Assembly (NCBI GenBank): GCA_963514005.1
Contig: OY740814.1
Location: 3,782,001-3,846,000 of the forward strand
DNA: 64,000 nt
Reading direction: 5' to 3'
DNA from: Raja brachyura
Taxonomy: Eukaryota
In this document: piece after piece, positions 7,302 to 64,000 of the stretch
Position numbering within the stretch: position 1 is the stretch's first letter
Layout of the letters: each line of letters begins with the position of its first letter
The notes under the pieces: model-generated
What the model was told of the DNA's origin: nothing
What the model saw: only the letters and a program-made list of their open reading frames with translations
Databases searched by the model: none
Program-made: the position numbers and the translations under genes

Positions 7302-8742
7302 ACCATTTCAGGGCACCATAAAGTCTGGGACACAGATGCAGATATAAGCGAGCTCTCAGCACTTAGTCTTTCCTCTAGTCTTTCCATCACCTTTGGAAAC
7401 TTTTATTGCTGTTGATCAACGTGAGGACCAAAGTTGTGCAATTAAAGTTAAATAAGCCATTACGAGGACTGAAAAACAAGAATAATACTGTTAGAGACAT
7501 CCACCAACCATAGGCTTACCAAAATCAACTGTTTGGGACATCATTAAGAAGAAAGAGAGTACTGGTGAGCTTACTAATCACAAAGGTACTGGCAGACCAA
7601 GGAAGACATCCACAGCTGATGACAGAATTCTCTGCATAATAAACAAAAATCCCCAAACACCTGTCCAACAGATCAGAGACACTCTTCGGGGGCCAGATGT
7701 GGATTTCTTAATGACCACTGTCCACAGAAGACTTCATGAACAGAAATACAGAGCTACACTGCAAGATGCAAACCACTGGTTAGCTGCAAAAATAGGATGG
7801 CCCAGTTACAGTGAGTATTTAGCCAATGAGTACTTAGAAGAGCAACCACAGTTCTGGAAAAAGGTCTCATAGACAGGTGAGACGAAGATTAATTTATATC
7901 AGAGTGATGGCAAGAGCAAAGTATGGAGAAGAGAAGGAACTACCCAAGATCCACAGCATACCACCTCATCTGTGAAACACGGTGGTGGGGGAATTATGGC
8001 CTGGGCATGTATGGCTGCTGAAGGTACTGGCTCATTTACCTTCATTGATGATACAATTGCTGATGGAGCAGCATAATTAATTCTGAAGTGTATATACACA
8101 TCATATCTGCTCAGGTTCAAACAAATGCCTCAAAACTCATTGGCTGGTGGTTCATTCTACAGCAAGACAATTATCCCAAACATACCGCTAAAGCAACAAA
8201 GGAGTTTGTCAAAGCTAAAAAATGATCAATTCTTGAGTGGCCAAGTCAATCACCCTATCTGAACCCAATTGTGCATGTCTTTTACATGCTGAAGAAAAAA
8301 ACCCCTTGTTTTCGGGGCTAGTCCTGCTAGGAACAGGACTAGCCCCCAAAACAAGCATAAGCTAAAGATGGTTGCAATACAGGCCTGGCAGGGCATCACC
8401 AGAGAAGACACCCAGCAACTGGTATTGTCCATGAATCGCAGACTTCAAGCAGCCATTGCATGCAAAGGATATGCAACAAAATACTGAACATGACTACATT
8501 CATTTACATTACATTGCTGTGTCCCAAACATTATGGTGCCTGAAATGGGGGGACTATGTCTCAACACTGTTGTATCTTCTACATGGTGAAAACAAAATGT
8601 ATAAAAATGGCCTTTATTAAAATCTGACAAGGTTCACTTTAACCACATGTGATTTTTTTTTCTATTACAAATCTCAAATAATGGAGTACAGAGGCAAATC
8701 CATAAATGACGGGTCTTTGTCCCAAACATTATGGGGCCAATG
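7081..8742 (+). mobile_element. Tc1/mariner DNA transposon (IR/DR type), full length but inactivated
   Basis: TA duplication (7079-7080 / 8743-8744). TIRs of ~230-250 bp start CAGTG (7081-~7335 and ~8517-8742) and contain internal direct repeats (CATAATGTTTGGGACA). Confidence 0.92.
7421..8487 (+). pseudogene. Degenerate Tc1 DDE transposase
   Basis: Frameshifted fragments include LPKSTVWDIIKK, GRPRKTS, ETKINLY, VKHGGGGIMAWACM, QQDNYPKH and WPSQSPYLNPI, with several stops and indels. Confidence 0.88.
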
Positions 8743-14013: not shown

Positions 14014-15012
14014 ACATAGAAACATAGAAAATAGGTGCAGGAATAGGCCATTCGGCCCTTCGAGCCTGCAGCGCCATTCAATAAGATCATGGCTGATCAT
14101 CCAACTCAGTATCCTGTACCTGCCTTCTCTCCATACCCCCTGATCCCTTTAGCCACAAGGGCCACATCTAACTCCCTCTTAAATATAGCCAATTAACTGG
14201 CCTCAACTACCTTCTGTGGCAGATAATTCCAGAGACTCACCACTCTCTGTGTGAAAAATGTTTTCCTCATCTCGGTCCTAAAGGAATTCCCCCTTATCCT
14301 TAGACTGTGACCCCTTGTTCTGGACCTCCCCAACATCGGGAACAATCTTCCTGCATCTAGCCTATCCAACCCCTTAAGAATTTTGTAAGTTTCTATAAGA
14401 TCCCCCCTCAGTCTTCTAAATTATAGCGAGTACAAACCAAGTCTATCCAGTTTTTCCTCATATGAAAGTCCTGACATCCCAGGAATCAGTCTGGTGAACC
14501 TTCTCTGTACCCCCTCTATGGCAAGAATGTCTTTTCTCAGATTTGGAGACCAAAACTGCACGCAATACTCCAGGTGTGGTCTCACCAAAACCCTGTACAA
14601 CTGCAGTAGAACCTCCCTGCTCCTATAGTCAATTCCTTTCGTTATGAATGCTAACATACCATTTGCTTTCTTCACTGCCTGTTGCACCTGCAGGCCTACT
14701 TTCAATGACTGGTGTACCATGACACACAGGTCTCGTTGAATCTCCCCTTTTCCTAATCGACAATGTAGATAACCATTAAGATAATAGTCTACCCTCCTGT
14801 TTTTGCCGCCAAAGTGGATAACCTCACATTATATTGCATATGCCATGCATTTGCCCACTCACCCAGCCTATCCAAGTCACCTTGCAGCCTCCTAGCATCC
14901 TCCTCACACCTAACACTACCCCCCCCCCCCCCCCCCAGCTTTGTGTAATCCGCAAACTTGGAGATGTTGCCTTCAATTCCCTCGTCCAGATCATTAATAT
15001 ATATTGTAGATA
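14014..15012 (-). mobile_element. CR1-type LINE 3' portion (RT domain and tail)
   Basis: IYINDLDEGIEGNISKFADYTKL...LQGDLDRL and LYRVLVRPHLEYCVQFWSP, with a (CATAGAAA)n tail. It splits a Rex-like 3' tail (13964-14013 and 15013-15076, ending (CTAAA)n). Confidence 0.9.
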
Positions 15013-15369
15013 GTACGCAACCAAAGCTTTTCGTTGTACCTCGACACACGTGATAATAAACTAAACTAAACTAAACAACACACTTTGTATTATGGTTTTT
15101 TTTCAAGAAATTGGATTGTGTTTTCTTTCGTCGGGCACTCGGTTTGTGTCATGGCGTCATTTTCAATTGGAATCCATGATTGAACTTTGTAACTCTGGAA
15201 TTCCCCATTTCTTCCCCGTGTATTCCACGAGTTAGAATGTTCAATCGTGGATTCCAATTGAAATTCCTTTAACTCCACGAATCGGTGGACTTTACTGAAG
15301 CGACCATGTAACCTGCGGTGAATAATGTTATACTATAATAGTGTGCAAAGAAGTGATGGAGGGTCTCTG

Positions 15370-53155: not shown

Positions 53156-54576
53156 TTAGAAAAAGTGTAGGATTAAATATATGACACCCGCACTAGCATG
53201 GGACCTTTAATTAGAGAGCATAGGTTATGACCTGACCTGGTCATTGCATCTTGCAATACCGAAACCCAGCCCAGCAGACGCATATTATTACAGGCATCAA
53301 AGAAAGCACAAAGCACAGATATAGCAACCATTCACAGCCACATTTTACATAATACTTTTTGGCGTTTGTAAACTTAAACCAGATTTAGCCTGCACTGGCG
53401 AGCANNNNNNNNNNNNNNNNNNNNNNNNNNNNNNNNNNNNNNNNNNNNNNNNNNNNNNNNNNNNNNNNNNNNNNNNNNNNNNNNNNNNNNNNNNNNNNNN
53501 NNNNNNNNNNNNNNNNNNNNNNNNNNNNNNNNNNNNNNNNNNNNNNNNNNNNNNNNNNNNNNNNNNNNNNNNNNNNNNNNNAATGCCCACAAAACAGTGA
53601 GCTTGCTTCGTTGCACACCAGGCCTGACATTTTACAAATAGTAATAAATTAACTGCAATGGTAATGTCATCGATTGCTCCTGGTTGAGTAGGATCAAGTA
53701 GACTGAACAAACAAAATAAACCGCATAAAATTTAAAAGTGTTTCCAAGTCGGTCAGTAATTCAAGTATAAAAAAAGACTAAGAAAAATACTACTTCATAA
53801 AAGCTGGCATGTGTTAACTTAAAGCAAACACACAAAACGTCACCCTCACTTAAGCTCAGTGGCCTGAATATTGTTTTTCTCTAACTAGATGTTCACTTTC
53901 ATTTGATTAGTTTGGTTAAAAAAGACATTTTGGAAAGGCGTCGTTTTTATGTGTGAGGTAAGAATATATATATATAAAGGAAGTTTGGGTCACGACTCCT
54001 GCACTTGAAAAGGTCCAGGGAGTCCTCTAGATCCCCAGATCACTCTGACACAACAAGGAAGGGATTGTGGACCGCTTACTCACATAAACTGTTTTTTTTC
54101 TGTTTGCTGATATCAATCCTTGAACGCACTATGCCAGCTCTAGATGAGCGGCTGTGGTAATATTATAACTTAAGTGCAGCAATTCTGAACACAATATAAA
54201 TGGGAATGACTAACTGGAACACGTGAAAAATGAAATGTATATATAATAATTTACCCTCCTTCAATATTTACAACTGCACAGCATTTTTCTTTTAATAATA
54301 ATGTACATTCCCATGCAATGTGTTGGGGAATATGCAGCAATTGCTTATGCCACGGATCACTGCAAATGGTTAAAAAGATCACTGAGTGTTTTCATCATAT
54401 TTTAAAACTTATATTTTGCTCCAGAAAATGAAGACTCTTTTTTCCAGCCATTTCAATATTAAGGGGTATTATGTGGAGAGTGTATGCCAGCACTCTAAGT
54501 GCATGGAAAATGAGGCTGAATATTTGCCTGAATCTCCATTCTGATATGATATCATGGCTGTTTTGATTACAGATCA

Positions 54577-55182
<606 letters not shown>

Positions 55183-55935
55183 TCATTTTCAGACAGTTTT
55201 GCACACAATACACCCCCCCCCCCAAAAAAAAAATGCAAGAGCTGCCGCACACTGCCTTTTTGTTTAATAAATCTCACCTATGCCGCAACAGAATGGTGCA
55301 TATTTTAAACCACGACTGCATAAGCTAAGCCAAGCACCGCAATGCAATTTTGCTATGTCATTTCCCTAACGCGTGTACAAACTGATTAAATATTTTACAA
55401 CAATGGCTGATTTATTTTTCCTATCTGGACTTTGCAAACTGCTCCAACTTGCATGGTGCATTAGTAGCACCCTGCTCTCTTCTCCTGCGGTTGCGTGTGT
55501 AACCTAGCACATTTTACCAAATTAGATTACAATCAAAACATGCTTTCTATGGTTATTCTACANNNNNNNNNNNNNNNNNNNNNNNNNNNNNNNNNNNNNN
55601 NNNNNNNNNNNNNNNNNNNNNNNNNNNNNNNNNNNNNNNNNNNNNNNNNNNNNNNNNNNNNNNNNNNNNNNNNNNNNNNNNNNNNNNNNNNNNNNNNNNN
55701 NNNNNNNNNNNNNNNNNNNNNNNNNNNNNNNNNNNNNNNNNNNNNNATTTGCAAGAACACTTAACTGAGTTTCTCAACCATAAACTGCACAGACAGGCGG
55801 TAGCAATTGAGTGAAACATGCAAGCATGGTAGCCCATTTTAACTTTATAGAATCTAACATTTCAGCCTCTCTTTTTTAAGCTAGGTCGGCGGGTAAGAGC
55901 GGTTCAAACATTTGAAATAAATTAATTCTCAATAC

Positions 55936-56347
55936 CTTCCCGTCTCATGCCGACTTTCAGGCATTTTTTCAGGCGACAGTACTGACACTGATTGCGGTGG
56001 TGTTGGTCTATGGGGCAGGTCCTGTTGGCACGACATGTGTACGTCAAGTTTCTGCGCACACTTCTTTTAAAGAAACTCTTGCAGCCCTCGCAGGTGAACT
56101 GGCCGTAATGTTTGCCGCTCGACTTGTCCCCGCACACCACACACTCGATATGCTGCTGCTGTTTCTCGCTCTGCTGCTGGTTAGACTGGGCCGGCGTGCC
56201 CGGACCTCCAGGTTGGCCGGGGGTCTGCGGGGTAAGGGGTGCTCCAGAAGGCTGTTGCGGTCCTTGCTGAGGCGGAGGTGGCTGTGTGACTTGAGCTCCG
56301 GCCACGTCGTCTTGCGGGTCTCGCCACGTACTAACTACCATTGCCAT
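55936..56347 (-). CDS. NR2F2: NR2F2 coding exon 1, N-terminus and C4 zinc-finger DBD
   Basis: [13 protein letters not shown]...[31 protein letters not shown]; donor G|gtatt; 412 nt. The three exons total 1215 nt, giving 404 aa plus stop. Confidence 0.97.
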
Positions 56348-56861
56348 ATCTCGGGCAGAGTGTTATCAGGCAGCGAAAAAAAAAACAAAACAAAAAAAAC
56401 ACACACAAAAAGAACAGGTCTTGTCTTTTGGATCGGGGGTGGGGAGAAAATGAAGGAAGGAGAANNNNNNNNNNNNNNNNNNNNNNNNNNNNNNNNNNNN
56501 NNNNNNNNNNNNNNNNNNNNNNNNNNNNNNNNNNNNNNNNNNNNNNNNNNNNNNNNNNNNNNNNNNNNNNNNNNNNNNNNNNNNNNNNNNNNNNNNNNNN
56601 NNNNNNNNNNNNNNNNNNNNNNNNNNNNNCAGACCCGATCGGAAGAGAAGATTCGATTGTCGGGGGGCCACGACCAGGGCAACACGCAGTCAGCCATTCA
56701 GGAAACCCATCAAAAAAGGAAAAAGAGGGACGAAAGGTTAAAGACTGAAAGCAAAAAAAAGGCTCGACTCTCGCAGGCAGATGCACGAACCGGAGTACAA
56801 GTGACCGACCATCAACTGATCATAGATTCTTCGCCGTACCGGTAGTGCTGGAACTGCACAT

Positions 56862-56862
<1 letters not shown>

Positions 56863-56892
<30 letters not shown>

Positions 56893-56949
56893 CACACACG
56901 CACACACACACACACACACACGCACTCACACACACACACACACACGCAC
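56863..56949. repeat. (CA)n microsatellite within the inferred NR2F2 5' UTR
   Basis: Read directly from the sequence. Confidence 0.9.
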
Positions 56950-57187
56950 GATGAGAGTCAACAACTCGCCAGCGAAAAAGGACTACAAAAAAAAAGAGTC
57001 GACGTCGTGCAAAAAAAAAGGGAAGAGCTATGCAACCTCTCTCATGCGAGAAGAGGCAGGGAAATAAAGGAAGCGAGGAGATAATCAAACTGATCAAATA
57101 TGCAAAAGGGGTTGGAAGTGAATCCGATTTGAACGAGCGAGCTTGCGGAGTAATTTTTCTGAAAGGGGGAATCTGCGCGGATGGCTG

Positions 57188-57207
57188 TATATAGTGAACT
57201 TTGACAC
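57188..57207 (-). promoter_or_regulatory. NR2F2 core promoter: DR1 element abutting a TATA box
   Basis: Minus strand reads GTGTCA-A-AGTTCA-C-TATATA (DR1 57195-57207; TATATA 57188-57193), which places the TSS near 57160. Confidence 0.75.
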
Positions 57208-57244
57208 GACTATTCAAACTGACACGTTTCTATGGAGATGATTT

Positions 57245-57254
57245 CCTTATAAGG
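57245..57254. promoter_or_regulatory. Perfect CArG box (SRF consensus)
   Basis: CCTTATAAGG fits CC(A/T)6GG and lies ~55 bp upstream of the TATA box; a minus-strand CCAAT is at 57367-57371. Confidence 0.5.
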
Positions 57255-60200
57255 CGCTGCCGAGTGACGGAGCCAAGCGCCTGCTTCTGGCGACTGACAA
57301 TCAAAGCCGACTGGTCAGAGCTTTAGGTTCGAGGGGCTGGAACTTGTAGCACGCCCCCTGCACCGCATTGGATGGGCACCTTCCATATTATCTAACACAT
57401 CCTGGCCGCCAGCAAATTTACATGAAATCCATGCGCAGAGGGTGCACTTTGAAAAATAAGTTTCCCCCCCCCCCCAAAAAAAAATAAACCTCTTCTCCCC
57501 CCCCCACACTCCACGCCACAGACACCCCCAAACCTCCCTTCACTTTTTTCCTTTTCATTAAAAATAAATCTTCAAAGATGGGTTTTTTGATGGGTGCGAC
57601 GGTAGATTTTTCTTTAATAAATGCAACTTTCTCAAATGAGCTACCCACATATACAAATTAATACACAGATTATATTAAATCAACTAATAAAGGATATGAA
57701 ATTTAAAAGCAACAGCAAACTCATGCAACAGCAGACATTGAATATTCCCAATTACAATCATACATGCAAGCGCGCCTTGTGAGGGTGGAATTTTGAAATA
57801 TGAAGAGTATATTTGGCATTATTATTACTCCAGAGTTTACAATATGCCTACTATGTGTATACAATTTTGAAGGATTCTATGATAAGCCTAATGCTGCAAA
57901 TGTGTAAGGTCCGGCAAGACAAAATTATTACAGAAAAACGCATCATTTTTTTAAATCAAAGGCCGAAGTTGATGCTGAAGATGTAACATTAGCGACGATT
58001 GCTATGATATGAGTTGGGACATCCTAACGCTGGCTAGATTTTTTTTTTAGGAAACTTAATAAATGCGGCCAAATGCAACGAAGTGAAATAATGTCAGAAA
58101 TCAGCTGCGGTCAGTTTATGGGGAAGAATTGTTTCTGTACGTTCGACAAGGTGACTAGCCTTGGAAAAAAAAACCCATGAATACTCGAGAGAATCTCATT
58201 CATCTGATGAACCATTATTAATTCGGATAAATAACGCGTTAACTTTGAAATACTCAAGAGTGATAAAGAGCTTTGAAGAATGCATATAACTGATCAGCTA
58301 AATATATTGTAACATATAGGAAGACTGATATAGACATGAGGATATGTAGTTATGCATCAACATGCCCGAAACTATATGGAAGACGGACGATGCTTTAGAA
58401 TTGAGTTGTTCCGATATGATTTTCTTCCTAGTCTCCCAATATTAATGGATTTCAGTGTAGCATGTGTTTATTTTGGGGGAAAAATAGACATTCTCATTGA
58501 TGTCACATTAGGTACAGTGGTTACTCTGGACATGGGGCTGCTCTATTGGCAAAGCTACTGGAGTTAACTCGAATTAACTGACAGAATTTACTAATATTGT
58601 CGTGAGGAATATTCAAACTTACGTAAATTCAATGGTTTTTTGAGTGTCCAGTCGTCTTATAAGCAATATTTTAATGCAGCAATTAATACTTCCAGAAAAA
58701 TTATATAGTATACTAAATAACTGCATGGAATTGAATGGGTATGTATGAAGGAATAGGCATTATTGTCGGACGCTTGGTGCTATCAATAATCCACTCGCGC
58801 CCAATTGTATCTTCACATTTCACGGTACTTTAATTTAAAAAAAGTCTACAATTTAATACACACGCACTTTGAAGTACATGTCAGATGCATCCTTTACCCT
58901 TGATATGTCCGTTCAAAATTGATATAATCGTATGTATTACCGAGAATATTCAGAAATTCTCACCCCTGTCGATGCTCGCATTGTTACGCGGTTAATATAT
59001 AAAATAAGGAATTATGCCCGTCGAAGGATATAACGCACACACATGGGGACATTGCATTAAACAGGTGTTTACTTTGAAGTCCAATGGGTAGAATGTTAAA
59101 TACCGTTACTTGGAGGGAGGAACAATTTTCATCTCTCCTCTCCTCATCTATCACATATCTACCCGAATGCACACAATATTTGGGTACAGTTACCACTGTA
59201 GCCTCCCAGAGATTACTGGCAGGTGATAAAAAAATTACCTCCGTGTTTACTTGGAGTTAAATAACCCCCCTTTTCTTGAAATGACCAGTGCACAATTGTA
59301 CAGCAACTATGCTCACTTGGGTCGGTAAAGACACGGACACAAACCCTCTCGTTAAGCGGTCCGACAACATATATGTTGCAACTTACAGGAACATGTACGC
59401 GTGGTTTTAACTTCATCGGCTTCAAAGTGCCTGGGAAAATTATTAATTTAATTTGAGCAGATAGTTGACAGACTGGAGTGCACTGGGCGGTTAGTTTGGG
59501 GAAATGGGAAATTAAGATATTTTGTTAGTAATTAAACTCCAGCGTATCAACGTTATCCAGCCAAGGATGCGTGTTGCTAAGCGCTCATTTAAGAGGTGCA
59601 GGCAAAAGTTTGAAACACGTTTTCTGGTATAAAATTGAATCGCTGTTTAATATTTTTAATAAGACAGTAAGGATACACTTTATATGTTACTGTCAAAAGT
59701 AAGTTTGAGTTGTTCCGACACCAAACTAAAGAGACAATCAGAAACCAATCAGCGGAGTTTAAATAGTTTCCAAGGGATGAAGGTGTACAGGATTTGGTAA
59801 ATTAATATTGTGTTGCATGCCAACTGTGGCATATTTATTGAAACGTATTTCTACCACGAACTAGATGCCACTTATTGTCCAGTTGTTCTCTGATAACCAG
59901 CTAAATCTATTGAATTTGAGTTCCCTGTGAATTCACCCTGTCCCCCCCTCTCTCTTGCTCTCTCCCCCTCTCCCACCCTCCCTCTCCCTCTCTCTCTCTA
60001 CATCTCAACACAATGAATAGGGGAAAGTGGCTCCCATTGTGTCCCGGTGATCTCAAAGTCATTGCAGTTTTTAAGCGGTGACTTGTGGCACTTTGATAAC
60101 CGCCGGGAGCTGTCAGTGCAGCGGGCTTCTGAAAAATTTACAGTGTTAAATCGCAGCATATGCTGGAGAATTTGTCAAAATCTTGTACAGTATCCGGCTG

Positions 60201-61360
60201 CCACCTAGCGTATGGAGTGTCGCTATAGAAGTCCGGAGCTGAACAGCCATTCAAAGCGATCGCGGCGCCTCCTCGCTCACAACACGTCCTTTATATCCCG
60301 AAAAAAAACTTCTGCACCTTTAATATGATTAATTCTTTAGGATTTTTCTCTAATTGATTCGGACATTGCTGAGCGGGTCTGCGTGATCTCCGTCGCTTTG
60401 TTTTGTATAGATCTGCCTCTACGCTTGGGTTGACTTAAGTGCCAGGAATTGGTCTTATTTCCAAAACAACCGATTGCTAATTGACTTTTTTCCCCCTTCT
60501 AAAAACGGTTCATCTAAAACAGTAAAGCCAAGCCAAAATGATGCCGGCTCCTTCGCCCCTCAATAAATAAATATACATTTCCCACACAAAAATCATCAGA
60601 TGAGTATCTGGATCTAGATTAAAACGGTGAGTACCAATTTCTAATACACAGTTCAAATTAAATCTGTTGATTGTAGCAACGTTTTACTTGATAGATTTTG
60701 CGACGATTCAGTTCTTATTTCTTATATTGAGAGAAAAGTTGTTTTTAATGAGCTCGCCGGCGATATTCAACGTTGTAAATCAGACCACTATTACACAGCA
60801 ATTTAGCAATGATTGAAAAACAAATCTAATTCATTGAAACACGGGGTTAGAGGCGCTGGATTTTTGCGTACACGACTGGAACCTGGTTTAGAAAGATTCC
60901 AATCCCCTTGGTTTATTTCGGGGTTGGCGAGTATGCTTATTTCTGCTGGTCATTTTGCATATTTCCCAATATTACACTGTCGTGCGGCACAGTAATCCAT
61001 TCGCTGTTCAATTGGATCTCCGACCGGTGCTATCCATTTGGAAACACGTATATTAACTACCCGGAGCATAAGAACGGAGCGTTGGATTATCAAAATAATC
61101 AGAAAGAGAACCCGACCTTGATTTAATGATTTTTTGCCATTACACCTAGAAATAATTAAAGCAAAACTTTAATTGTTTAAACTGATATTCAATAGGCCAC
61201 AGATTAGAAGTATGTGTCGAAATTCAAAACCTGCTTCGTGTGAAAATAATATAGATTAATTAACACAGGTGTTTAAGAACGATAATGTTTTGAGCAAGAA
61301 AAACGTATTTCCCCCTCGATTAAGTAAACAAAAGTACATATATATTTATTAAAAACATAC

Positions 61361-61412
61361 CAAACATCATTGCTTGCAACTGTCTTTGTTCAGTGTCCGA
61401 AATTATTTGCAT
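61361..61412 (-). CDS. NR2F2: Putative alternative first coding exon of NR2F2 (DBD-less isoform)
   Basis: The ATG has A at -3. It encodes MQIISDTEQRQLQAMMF plus G|gtatgt; 52 nt, phase 1, in frame with exon 2. It resembles the human isoform b N-terminus as recalled (MQAVWDLEQGKYGF). Confidence 0.7.
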
Positions 61413-61645
61413 CGTGAAGGATTGGAGACTCCGCTGGACACAGGAAGTTGTGAATCTTGGCGGAACCGCGTTGGAAAGTACTGAGTGAGATGAATCTTTT
61501 TTTTCTGGCAGGTGAACTGAAGGAGGGCTAGTCTCCTCCTCACCTGATCAATTTGCCTATTGAAGAGAATCATTCATTTAATCGACCGTCATCTGTTTGC
61601 ACGACCGATAGTGTAAACTGATAAATAAAAACAAGGTTGCCTTTG

Positions 61646-61647
<2 letters not shown>

Positions 61648-61689
<42 letters not shown>

Positions 61690-61712
61690 GAGAGAGAGAG
61701 AGAGGGGGAGAG
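61648..61712. repeat. (GA)n microsatellite
   Basis: Read directly from the sequence. Confidence 0.95.
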
Positions 61713-64000
61713 GCTGATATAAATATTCAGAAAAAACAGGGAAGTACTTTCGATTTTCAATTTAACTTTCGCTCAGTCTTTACGTTTAAACTTTAAGGGC
61801 CTATCGATAATCGCTGACCTGCGGAAAAGTGCAGTGGGATGCGATGCGCGCCTTTTAAACCCCCGAGCCACTAATACCAATCTCCTGCGCAAATTCGCTC
61901 CTTTGCTCTGGTCAGTTCGGGTTTGTAAAAGTTTCCAATATATGGTTTTTTTTTTTGGGGGGGGGGGGGTTGGGTGTGGGGAGGGTGAAGGGGGGGGGGG
62001 CGGTTGAAGGTGATGGAAGGCCAAACGTACATGTCTCAGTTAAAAAACAAGAAATACGTTGCGACTATTTCAATAAGACAAGGAGAGGAGGGAATAAAAA
62101 AACATTAAATTACCATCAACACCCTAATCACCCCCCCTCTACCCGTCGCCTATAGTGGCTGATTTGTGTGGTTTCTGGAGTTTCGTGAACTTTATGTCAA
62201 AGTTAATTTATTCCTGCTATGTTTCTCCTATGAAGTTGTTTCAGACCCGGGGTATAAAAGTGAGCCATTCCCCCAAAGATTTTAACACCCCGCCCTACCC
62301 CATCAACGGCTTGCAGAAGAGTAAATAATTATTTGAGATTTGACGAGATCTGGTGATGGTTTGTGTCCAGTGTAAAATTATCTCCGTGTTTTCCAAAAGG
62401 GTATCTGTAGCTGGTGGAGAATCCTTCCAGCCCCAGGCCTTTGTCTTGGCAGAGTTGAGAGGGGATTGTGTGTGAGTCGTGTGAAAAGGACGGCCAGGGT
62501 CGCTTCAGATCGATTTTTATTTGTCCCCTCTGTCTTTTCGGATCAGCGCCCTTCAATGGACACATAGGCGCTCTTTCAAGAGAAAAATCTTGTGCAACAT
62601 TTCTGGCCTGATTGCAGCTCACCCTCCGTATTCTGGGGTTGGAATCTGCTGCAATTAAACCATTAAGTACATGTGCACTTCCAAGTCTTGCCAGTATTAG
62701 CCGCTCCACCACTTTTCCACACAGCCACTTCCAATGGCACAATAGATATCTCAAGCCACCCATCACATAGCCATTTCTGCTGGACATTATTATATACCTA
62801 TAGCATATACGGACAGCACAGTGCTTTAAAAAACTAATATTAGTGTGTTCAGAGGATGAAACTTGCCAAACGAAGGGGAACAATTTAAAGTATATTGAAT
62901 ATAAATCTCATCGTTAATATGGAACACTGGTTTAATTGTTGATAATATGACCACTGCTTATTTTGAAGGTGTTTCCTCTCTCTATACCTAACTGTGTTAA
63001 ATGTGTGTGACACTGAATTTGTTCATTGACTTGAGGTTAGATTGTGATAAGGCCAATTAATACGTGGAACGTATTATTTCTTTAATACGAAGCTAGAATG
63101 TATTTAATGTAACCATAACGGTTCGTTTGAGCCAAAAATAATGTTAAATATATTGAGTTAATACTTTAATTTAAAAAAAAAGTCAACAGCGACTGATTGT
63201 ATGGAATCAGGCGCAACATGTGAGACATTCAATAATTTAAGGTAGTTGTCAATGAGAGAACACACCAGGGCTGTTTGACAATGAACAACAACGCTAACAG
63301 CGCTGCAGTGGATATTAAATAATATCTCTTTAATTCCTAAGATGATTTTCAGCAGTCAAAATAATGACGGATGTGCGAACTTTATTCAATAGCGAAATTT
63401 TCAATAGTGAAAAATTACCTTTCGCAAATAACAATTTTAATAGCCAAATGCAGCATTGGCAGAAATAAACTCTAGACAATTTTATTTATTGGCCAATGCA
63501 TAGTCCTTGGAGTGCAGGGCGCCACTAAAATTAGGATCATTACCAATAGGCACTTGGATAAAGCTAATAGGTAGTAATCTATAGTGTCGCTTTGATAAGA
63601 TGCTCACATTTTTTTCATGACTGGAAAGTTGATGATAACAAGACAAACGGTTTATTATATATCGTGTCGCACTGAAGGTTTATTGGCGTGACTCAGGGGT
63701 TGAGGCGAGAAGAAATTGATCTTAACCGAGGAACAGAAAGAAAGAAAAAGGCTTGAAAGGTACACGTAGAGAACAGTAGACAATGGTTGTCTACAGATTA
63801 CAACATGCCGCCTATTGGGTCTTGTATCGATTGGGAGGGATGCTGAAGATGTCACCACACTAAATATTTACTGATCACACACAAATAACACGGGCATATC
63901 GATTGTTTTTCGCTGGTGAGAACGGAGCAAAGGGGTAAATCATTGTGTGTAAAGAGAGGTTTTAAAAGGCATGTTTCAGATGTGGGGATAACAGGATAAA

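What the first reader, a model, noticed from the sequence alone, without database searches (positions are those of the whole stretch)
61361..61412. Hidden upstream exon encoding a DNA-binding-domain-less NR2F2 isoform in a cartilaginous fish
Seen: the minus strand reads ATG CAA ATA ATT TCG GAC ACT GAA CAA AGA CAG TTG CAA GCA ATG ATG TTT G|GTATGT. That is 17 codons plus a phase-1 donor ~5 kb upstream of the canonical ATG, too short for the ORF track. Splicing to exon 2 gives MQIISDTEQRQLQAMMF-AVQRGR..., a 284-aa protein with no zinc fingers. Recalled knowledge: human NR2F2 isoform b starts MQAVWDLEQGKYGF-AVQRGR from an upstream exon. The shared pattern is MQxxxDxEQ...F. Inference: the two-promoter, LBD-only design may date to the jawed-vertebrate ancestor.
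Basis: partly seen in the sequence, partly recalled or inferred. Interest (0 to 1): 0.75.

Follow-up and report, generated by a model that had tools for sequence, protein, structure and literature searches.

The report
Ancient short-form exon of NR2F2
This fish (likely a skate) has an upstream NR2F2 exon whose peptide matches the start of the short mammalian form that lacks the DNA-binding domain, so that form likely dates to the first jawed vertebrates; database gene models of skates and sharks already contain the exon, and its splicing in this species is untested.

Summary
In detail: ATG at 61412, 17 codons, a phase-1 GT donor at 61360, and an in-frame exon-2 acceptor at 55133, giving 284 aa. 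The peptide ranks 1 of 1,186 ATG…GT candidates in the window against bony-vertebrate isoform-2 (V2) N-termini, so it is very likely the orthologous exon. It is not hidden. Database models of thorny skate, whale shark, horn shark and sawshark already splice this exon to exon 2; the skate peptide is identical. No spliced junction was seen in 4 runs laid, a weak test. The likely product is an LBD-only NR2F2 that dimerises with the full-length protein, as shown for human Iso2. I found no paper stating the isoform's jawed-vertebrate age. A modest, real result.

The parts
61361..61412 (-). Coding core of the alternative first exon: 17 codons plus 1 nt; matches the V2/Iso2 N-terminal peptide. ATG has A at -3.
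   Evidence: identical to residues 55-71 of XP_032906397.1; alignment
61355..61360 (-). Phase-1 splice donor GTATGT
   Evidence: relatives' models switch to exon 2 at this point
61413..61573 (-). Upstream part of the same exon. ATG 61573 (T at -3) starts the database models of relatives; here it opens a 56-codon out-of-frame ORF that stops at 61403, overlapping ATG 61412
   Evidence: 26 of 26 residues match the skate model before the A-run, 28 of 28 after it in the other frame
61497..61504 (-). Run of 8 A; 9 would put ATG 61573 in frame
   Evidence: contigs of organism A carry one more letter here (table 4)
61648..61712 (.). CT/GA microsatellite just upstream of the exon; transcription start not located
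55936..56347 (-). Coding part of canonical exon 1 (AF-1 and both zinc fingers), skipped by the short isoform
   Evidence: 133 of 137 residues identical to Narcine NR2F2, 117-121 to three chondrichthyan NR2F1
55134..55154 (-). 21-nt extension from a second exon-2 acceptor (adds 7 residues); the skate X3 model joins the upstream exon to it
54606..55133 (-). Exon 2: hinge and most of the ligand-binding domain
   Evidence: 175 of 175 identical to skate model; PDB 3CJW, E 1e-95
52829..53103 (-). Coding part of exon 3, with the two dimerisation leucines (234-235 of the 284-aa form; 231-232 in 281-aa mammalian V2)

Best explanation
The stretch 61412-61361 encodes a peptide matching the NR2F2 isoform-2 (V2) N-terminus of bony vertebrates and is likely the orthologous alternative first exon, predicted to splice over the zinc-finger exon into exon 2 and give an LBD-only protein that would dimerise with full-length NR2F2 and shift its activity. 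Shown: the frame, donor, acceptor and peptide match, and database models with this junction in 4 named elasmobranchs. Inferred: a separate promoter above 61573; splicing in this species; and leaky scanning past three weak upstream ATGs (61592, 61577, 61573) to ATG 61412, giving 284 aa here. The dimer mechanism is carried over from human Iso2. The product class (no DNA-binding domain) holds whichever start is used: 61573 where in frame, 61412, the Met pair at 61370/61367, or the exon-2 Met at 55116.
For: Rank 1 of 1,186 candidates; scores 0 to 21 against 13 V2-type proteins versus -3 to -27 against 11 other LBD-only N-termini of NR2F1 and NR2F2. 6 of the first 10 residues are identical to the sturgeon/paddlefish isoform. 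V2-type N-termini are annotated in mammals, birds, turtles, lizards, frogs, caecilian, reedfish, sturgeon, eel and killifish. The same exon is joined to exon 2 in XP_032906397.1 and XP_032906396.1 (Amblyraja radiata, two acceptors), XP_048471873.1 (Rhincodon), XP_067873881.1 (Heterodontus) and a Pristiophorus UniRef entry. Among 4 species the 17-mer differs at 1-3 positions, with no indel. In organism A all 9 gap letters of the contig over 60020-61640 lie outside 61361-61412 (tables 4 and 8). Human Iso2 co-precipitates with Iso1 and needs Leu231/Leu232 (PMC10073109 section 12); both leucines are kept.
Against: The Met at 61412 is Thr in whale shark and horn shark, 2 of 4 named species. No 284-aa elasmobranch model was seen, though only 15 of the 136 members of the main LBD-only cluster were listed. 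In 2 of 4 runs laid (X1, X4) one contig runs unspliced across the donor and no joint or loose end is listed there; exon 2 was outside the stretch and 88 loose-end rows were hidden. The peptide is 3 residues longer than V2 and only 3-7 of the aligned residues are identical (21-50%). The whole 1.6 kb around the exon is constrained, not the exon alone (25 of 1,621 versus 93 of 1,665 substitutions). The models are computed; that NCBI variants rest on RNA-seq junctions is my recall, not a call.
Confidence: 0.8

Rival explanations
1. The true elasmobranch product is the 338-339-aa form from the upstream ATG (61573), with a 54-55-residue leader; the 8-A run in this window is an assembly slip or a species-specific loss, and ATG 61412 is internal.
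For: All 5 elasmobranch model sequences start there and are in frame. Two species lack the inner Met. Organism A has the ninth letter (table 4). The whale shark leaves the frame and returns to it within the leader.
Against: That ATG has T at -3, against A at 61412. Pipelines favour the longest ORF (recalled), so in-frame species are over-sampled. The whale shark's shifted segment and 6-16 differences in 56 leader columns suggest weak constraint on leader residues. All 13 bony-vertebrate V2-type proteins start at the inner Met.
Confidence: 0.25
2. The exon is real but its peptide hardly matters: translation starts at the Met pair near the donor or at the exon-2 Met (a 261-aa form like human Iso3/4), and selection acts on the promoter and splice site.
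For: Loss of the first Met in two sharks. The Met at 61370 is kept in 4 of 4 species and has G at -3. 261-aa forms from the exon-2 Met are widely annotated. Teleost peptides have drifted (scores 0-10).
Against: The Q-x-x-x-D/E-x-E-Q pattern persists from skate to primates, with one glutamate invariant in 13 of 13 rows, which fits a translated peptide.
Confidence: 0.15
3. The stretch is conserved regulatory or antisense-transcribed DNA; the database junctions are rare splicing noise and the likeness to V2 is coincidence.
For: Unspliced contigs across the donor in X1 and X4; constraint spans 1.6 kb; human NR2F2-AS1 runs opposite over the upstream region (PMC5997157 passages).
Against: 8 of 20,000 shuffles and rank 1 of 1,186; same side, phase and acceptor as V2; the junction recurs in 4 species and with two acceptors.
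Confidence: 0.06

Closest known systems
Human/mouse NR2F2 isoform 2 (COUP-TFII V2, NM_001145155)
   Same: Alternative first exon, no DNA-binding domain, same LBD (PMC7016888 and PMC10073109 passages); matching N-terminal pattern and junction; dimerisation leucines kept.
   Different: 17 rather than 14 exon-encoded residues; an upstream ATG that can add 54-55 residues; first Met lost in two sharks; promoter, expression and dimerisation not shown here.
RefSeq COUP-TF2-like isoforms X4 and X3 of Amblyraja radiata (XP_032906397.1, XP_032906396.1; also XP_055517018.1 and XP_055517017.1, species not displayed)
   Same: Same exon and junction; identical over the 17-mer, exon 2 (175 of 175) and exon 3 (90 of 90).
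   Different: 338 and 345 aa from the upstream ATG, which is out of frame in this window by one base.
COUP-TF2 isoform X3 of Rhincodon typus, Heterodontus francisci and Pristiophorus japonicus
   Same: Same exon and junction.
   Different: Thr in place of the inner Met in Rhincodon and Heterodontus; Met kept in Pristiophorus.
LBD-only isoform models of the paralogue NR2F1
   Same: Short leaders joined to exon 2, no zinc fingers.
   Different: No sequence likeness to this peptide (scores -3 to -17 for 6 proteins); shared origin not shown.

Membership tests
NR2F2 orthologues | Closer to NR2F2 than to NR2F1 | tested here: met
   Exon 1: 133 of 137 to Narcine NR2F2 versus 117-121 to three chondrichthyan NR2F1; exon 2: 173 versus 169 of 175. 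No tree or synteny was run.
NR2F2 V2/Iso2 isoform | Separate first exon upstream of canonical exon 1, joined in phase 1 to exon 2 | tested here: met
   Donor 5,014 nt above the canonical ATG, frame compatible; junction present in relatives' models.
NR2F2 V2/Iso2 isoform | N-terminal peptide homologous to V2 | tested here: met
   Rank 1 of 1,186; 8 of 20,000 shuffles; alignment.
NR2F2 V2/Iso2 isoform | No DNA-binding domain, intact LBD and dimer surface | tested here: met
   Zinc fingers lie in the skipped exon; LBD matches 3CJW; both leucines kept.
NR2F2 V2/Iso2 isoform | Translation starts at the V2 Met | tested here: inconclusive
   Met present here and in 2 of 4 named elasmobranchs, Thr in the other 2; models start upstream.
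NR2F2 V2/Iso2 isoform | Spliced transcript is expressed in this species | tested here: inconclusive
   4 runs of three other organisms, contigs only, exon 2 outside the stretch; no junction listed.
NR2F2 V2/Iso2 isoform | Own, methylation-controlled promoter | not testable with these tools
   No 5'-end data. CpG ratio 0.72-1.18 over 60001-62000 against 0.68 in the first 50 kb does not single out an island.
NR2F2 V2/Iso2 isoform | Binds and modulates full-length NR2F2 | not tested
   Shown for human Iso2 (PMC10073109 section 12); a complex prediction would only mirror solved COUP-TF structures.

The most novel reading that the evidence does not exclude
The DBD-less NR2F2 modulator is a jawed-vertebrate invention whose dose is tuned in elasmobranchs by start-codon turnover inside one exon. 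One base in an A-run flips an upstream AUG between an in-frame 54-residue extension and an overlapping repressive ORF, and galeomorph sharks replaced the ancestral Met codon by a Thr codon, forcing an upstream, near-cognate or downstream start.
Probability: 0.2. Interest if true: 0.5.

Novelty: new member of a known kind. Interest (0 to 1): 0.32.

Why it matters
Reviews treat the DBD-less COUP-TFII variants as found in mouse and human, with unknown purpose (PMC7016888 passage). The Nr2f evolution paper does not use the word 'isoform' in its main text (PMC8608329). [quoted passage not shown] That argues for a normal developmental role, for example in neural crest where human Iso2 is unmethylated, and not only a tumour one. 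It makes isoform-specific tests in fish embryos worthwhile. The impact is modest because the isoform is known and the exon already sits in public gene models.

Tried and rejected
No whole genome is held for this window. Run search: no RNA holder on record; 18 of 24 runs are guessed RNA. Laying 4 runs over 57000-61640: X5 and X9 do not cover the exon, which is no evidence either way. Contig depths differ along the stretch but cannot rank parts and were not used. Substitutions inside the exon in organism A were among 107 rows not shown. A search for short proteins (30-184 aa) carrying the leader or junction gave 4 candidates, none at E <= 1. No model with this exon was seen for the chimaera Callorhinchus (its X3 uses a donor inside exon 1) or for Narcine (15 of 17 cluster members listed); the listings are partial, so this is not absence. 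Rfam: 0 matches in 50000-64000. CpG profile uninformative. Earlier scan findings: none. Paper searches showed, by listing, no paper on this isoform in fishes; subscription papers are mostly absent, Rosa and Brivanlou 2011 was not held, Yamazaki 2013 was seen only through a review, and no supplements were read, so a conservation figure there could have been missed. The canonical exon-1 end was set one base wrong; that translation was discarded and the correct frame used.

Full report
Observation. The minus strand reads ATG at 61412, 17 open codons, one G, then GTATGT. Joined in phase 1 to exon 2 (55133-54606) and exon 3 (53103-52829), the frame gives 284 aa. The zinc fingers lie in canonical exon 1 (coding 56347-55936), which this form skips. 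The donor is 5,014 nt above the canonical ATG; the intron is 6,227 nt. The gene is NR2F2: exon 1 matches Narcine NR2F2 at 133 of 137 residues and three chondrichthyan NR2F1 at 117-121. The animal is likely a skate, inferred from identity with Amblyraja radiata over exons 2 and 3 (175 of 175, 90 of 90), against 173 of 175 in exon 2 for three sharks.

More than chance. Protein searches and cluster listings returned V2-type isoforms from primates, carnivores, bats, birds, turtles, lizards, frogs, a caecilian, reedfish, sturgeon/paddlefish, conger eel and killifishes. I scored every ATG…GT phase-1 candidate of 8-30 codons on both strands against the 12 distinct N-termini of 13 such bony-vertebrate proteins; no cartilaginous fish was in the set. 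The finding ranks 1 of 1,186 (13.3, next 8.8, mean -9.6), and 1 of 339 length-matched; 8 of 20,000 shuffles that keep the first M and last F reach it (a first run with 10 N-termini gave the same rank). Eleven other LBD-only N-termini of NR2F1 and NR2F2 score -3 to -27. Sturgeon shares 6 of the first 10 residues. The likeness is thin in absolute terms (21-50% of aligned residues, a 3-residue insertion, one invariant glutamate), but it sits at the same side, phase and acceptor.

Not hidden. One search returned database models with this exon joined to exon 2. They are XP_032906397.1 and XP_032906396.1 of Amblyraja radiata (two acceptors; each with a second accession whose species was not displayed), XP_048471873.1 of Rhincodon typus, XP_067873881.1 of Heterodontus francisci and a UniRef entry of Pristiophorus japonicus. 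The skate 17-mer is identical to the window's; among the four species it differs at 1-3 positions with no indel. These are computed models. That NCBI builds such variants from RNA-seq junctions is my recall.

Two corrections. First, all 5 elasmobranch model sequences begin 54-55 codons upstream. The window has that ATG at 61573 and encodes the skate leader exactly (26 of 26 residues before an A-run, 28 of 28 after it), but in two frames, because the run at 61497-61504 has 8 A where 9 are needed. As assembled, 61573 opens a 56-codon ORF that ends at 61403 and overlaps ATG 61412. Contigs from a relative (organism A) carry the ninth letter (table 4). Whether 8 is real was not tested. Second, the Met at 61412 is kept in Amblyraja and Pristiophorus but is Thr in Rhincodon and Heterodontus. 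The shark codon was not seen.

RNA evidence. None of the 24 runs listed is on record as RNA. I laid 4 of them (three organisms, contigs only) on 57000-61640, which excludes exon 2. In X1 and X4 a single contig runs unspliced from about 60020 to 61640. No joint or loose end is listed at 61361, but 88 loose-end rows were hidden and contigs drop rare forms. This counts weakly against abundant splicing in those libraries. The same contig has 25 substitutions in 1,621 bases against 93 in 1,665 further down the intron (Fisher p 2e-10), and its 9 gap letters all lie outside the 52 nt. The constraint covers 1.6 kb, so it points to regulatory DNA as much as to the exon.

How it likely works. Shown in human cells: Iso2 lacks the DNA-binding domain, enters the nucleus, co-precipitates with Iso1, and loses binding and effect when Leu231/Leu232 are mutated (PMC10073109, passages and section 12). 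It lowers or raises Iso1 activity by cell type (PMC7016888 passage; PMC12319391 passage). Shown here: the LBD matches the solved COUP-TFII LBD and both leucines are kept. Inferred: an upstream promoter makes a transcript that skips the zinc-finger exon. Ribosomes would pass three ATGs with C or T at -3 and start at 61412 (A at -3), giving an LBD-only partner that dimerises with full-length NR2F2. Any of the possible starts gives a protein without the DNA-binding domain, so the class of product is firmer than its length.

Known and new. It works like, and is most likely the orthologue of, COUP-TFII V2. Position, phase, peptide and domain content were tested and met; start site and expression are inconclusive; promoter and binding are untested. 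Eight paper searches (listings only) showed no paper on this isoform in fishes. A review names it only for mouse and human, and the Nr2f evolution paper has no 'isoform' in its main text (PMC8608329, passages). Subscription papers and supplements were not seen. No model with this exon was seen for chimaera, and lamprey was not examined, so the age is a minimum: the elasmobranch-bony vertebrate split.

Verdict. A real feature, correctly spotted, already present in automatic annotations of relatives. The added value is the link to V2 and the unstable start codon. Interest 0.32.

Noticed in passing
window 56697-56629, minus strand (5' UTR of canonical exon 1, running into an N gap): An ATG-led frame matches the N-terminus of coelacanth COUP-TF2 isoform X3 (XP_005993516.1) at 13 of 23 positions. 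That model joins this leader to exon 2, so it may be a second old DBD-less isoform from a donor inside exon 1, or a conserved upstream ORF. The donor would lie in the gap.
   Followed up: partly
window 55154-55134, minus strand: A second exon-2 acceptor adds 7 residues; it is used in Amblyraja X3 with the upstream exon and in Narcine full-length models.
   Followed up: partly
P0260 (Callorhinchus NR2F2 X3) and P0267 (Albula, NR2F1-like): Both models leave exon 1 inside the first zinc finger and join exon 2, another route to a form without a working DNA-binding domain.
   Followed up: no
P0135-P0147 (NR2F1 models): The paralogue NR2F1 also has several LBD-only models with short leaders in birds, turtles, lizards and mammals, unlike the NR2F2 peptide.
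   Followed up: partly
window 60020-61640: About 1.5% divergent from organism A against 5.6% at 57542-59206; runs of two other organisms match short pieces at 59547-59793, 60116-60295 and 60494-60626. Likely conserved regulatory DNA.
   Followed up: partly
window 57542-61640, runs X1 and X4: Long unspliced contigs cover the DNA between the two first exons; strand unknown, so nascent sense RNA, an antisense RNA like human NR2F2-AS1, or DNA are all possible.
   Followed up: no
window 7495-7872 (+), 14421-15070 (-): Short frames resembling a Tc1-type transposase piece and LINE reverse-transcriptase pieces (likeness recalled, not searched).
   Followed up: no
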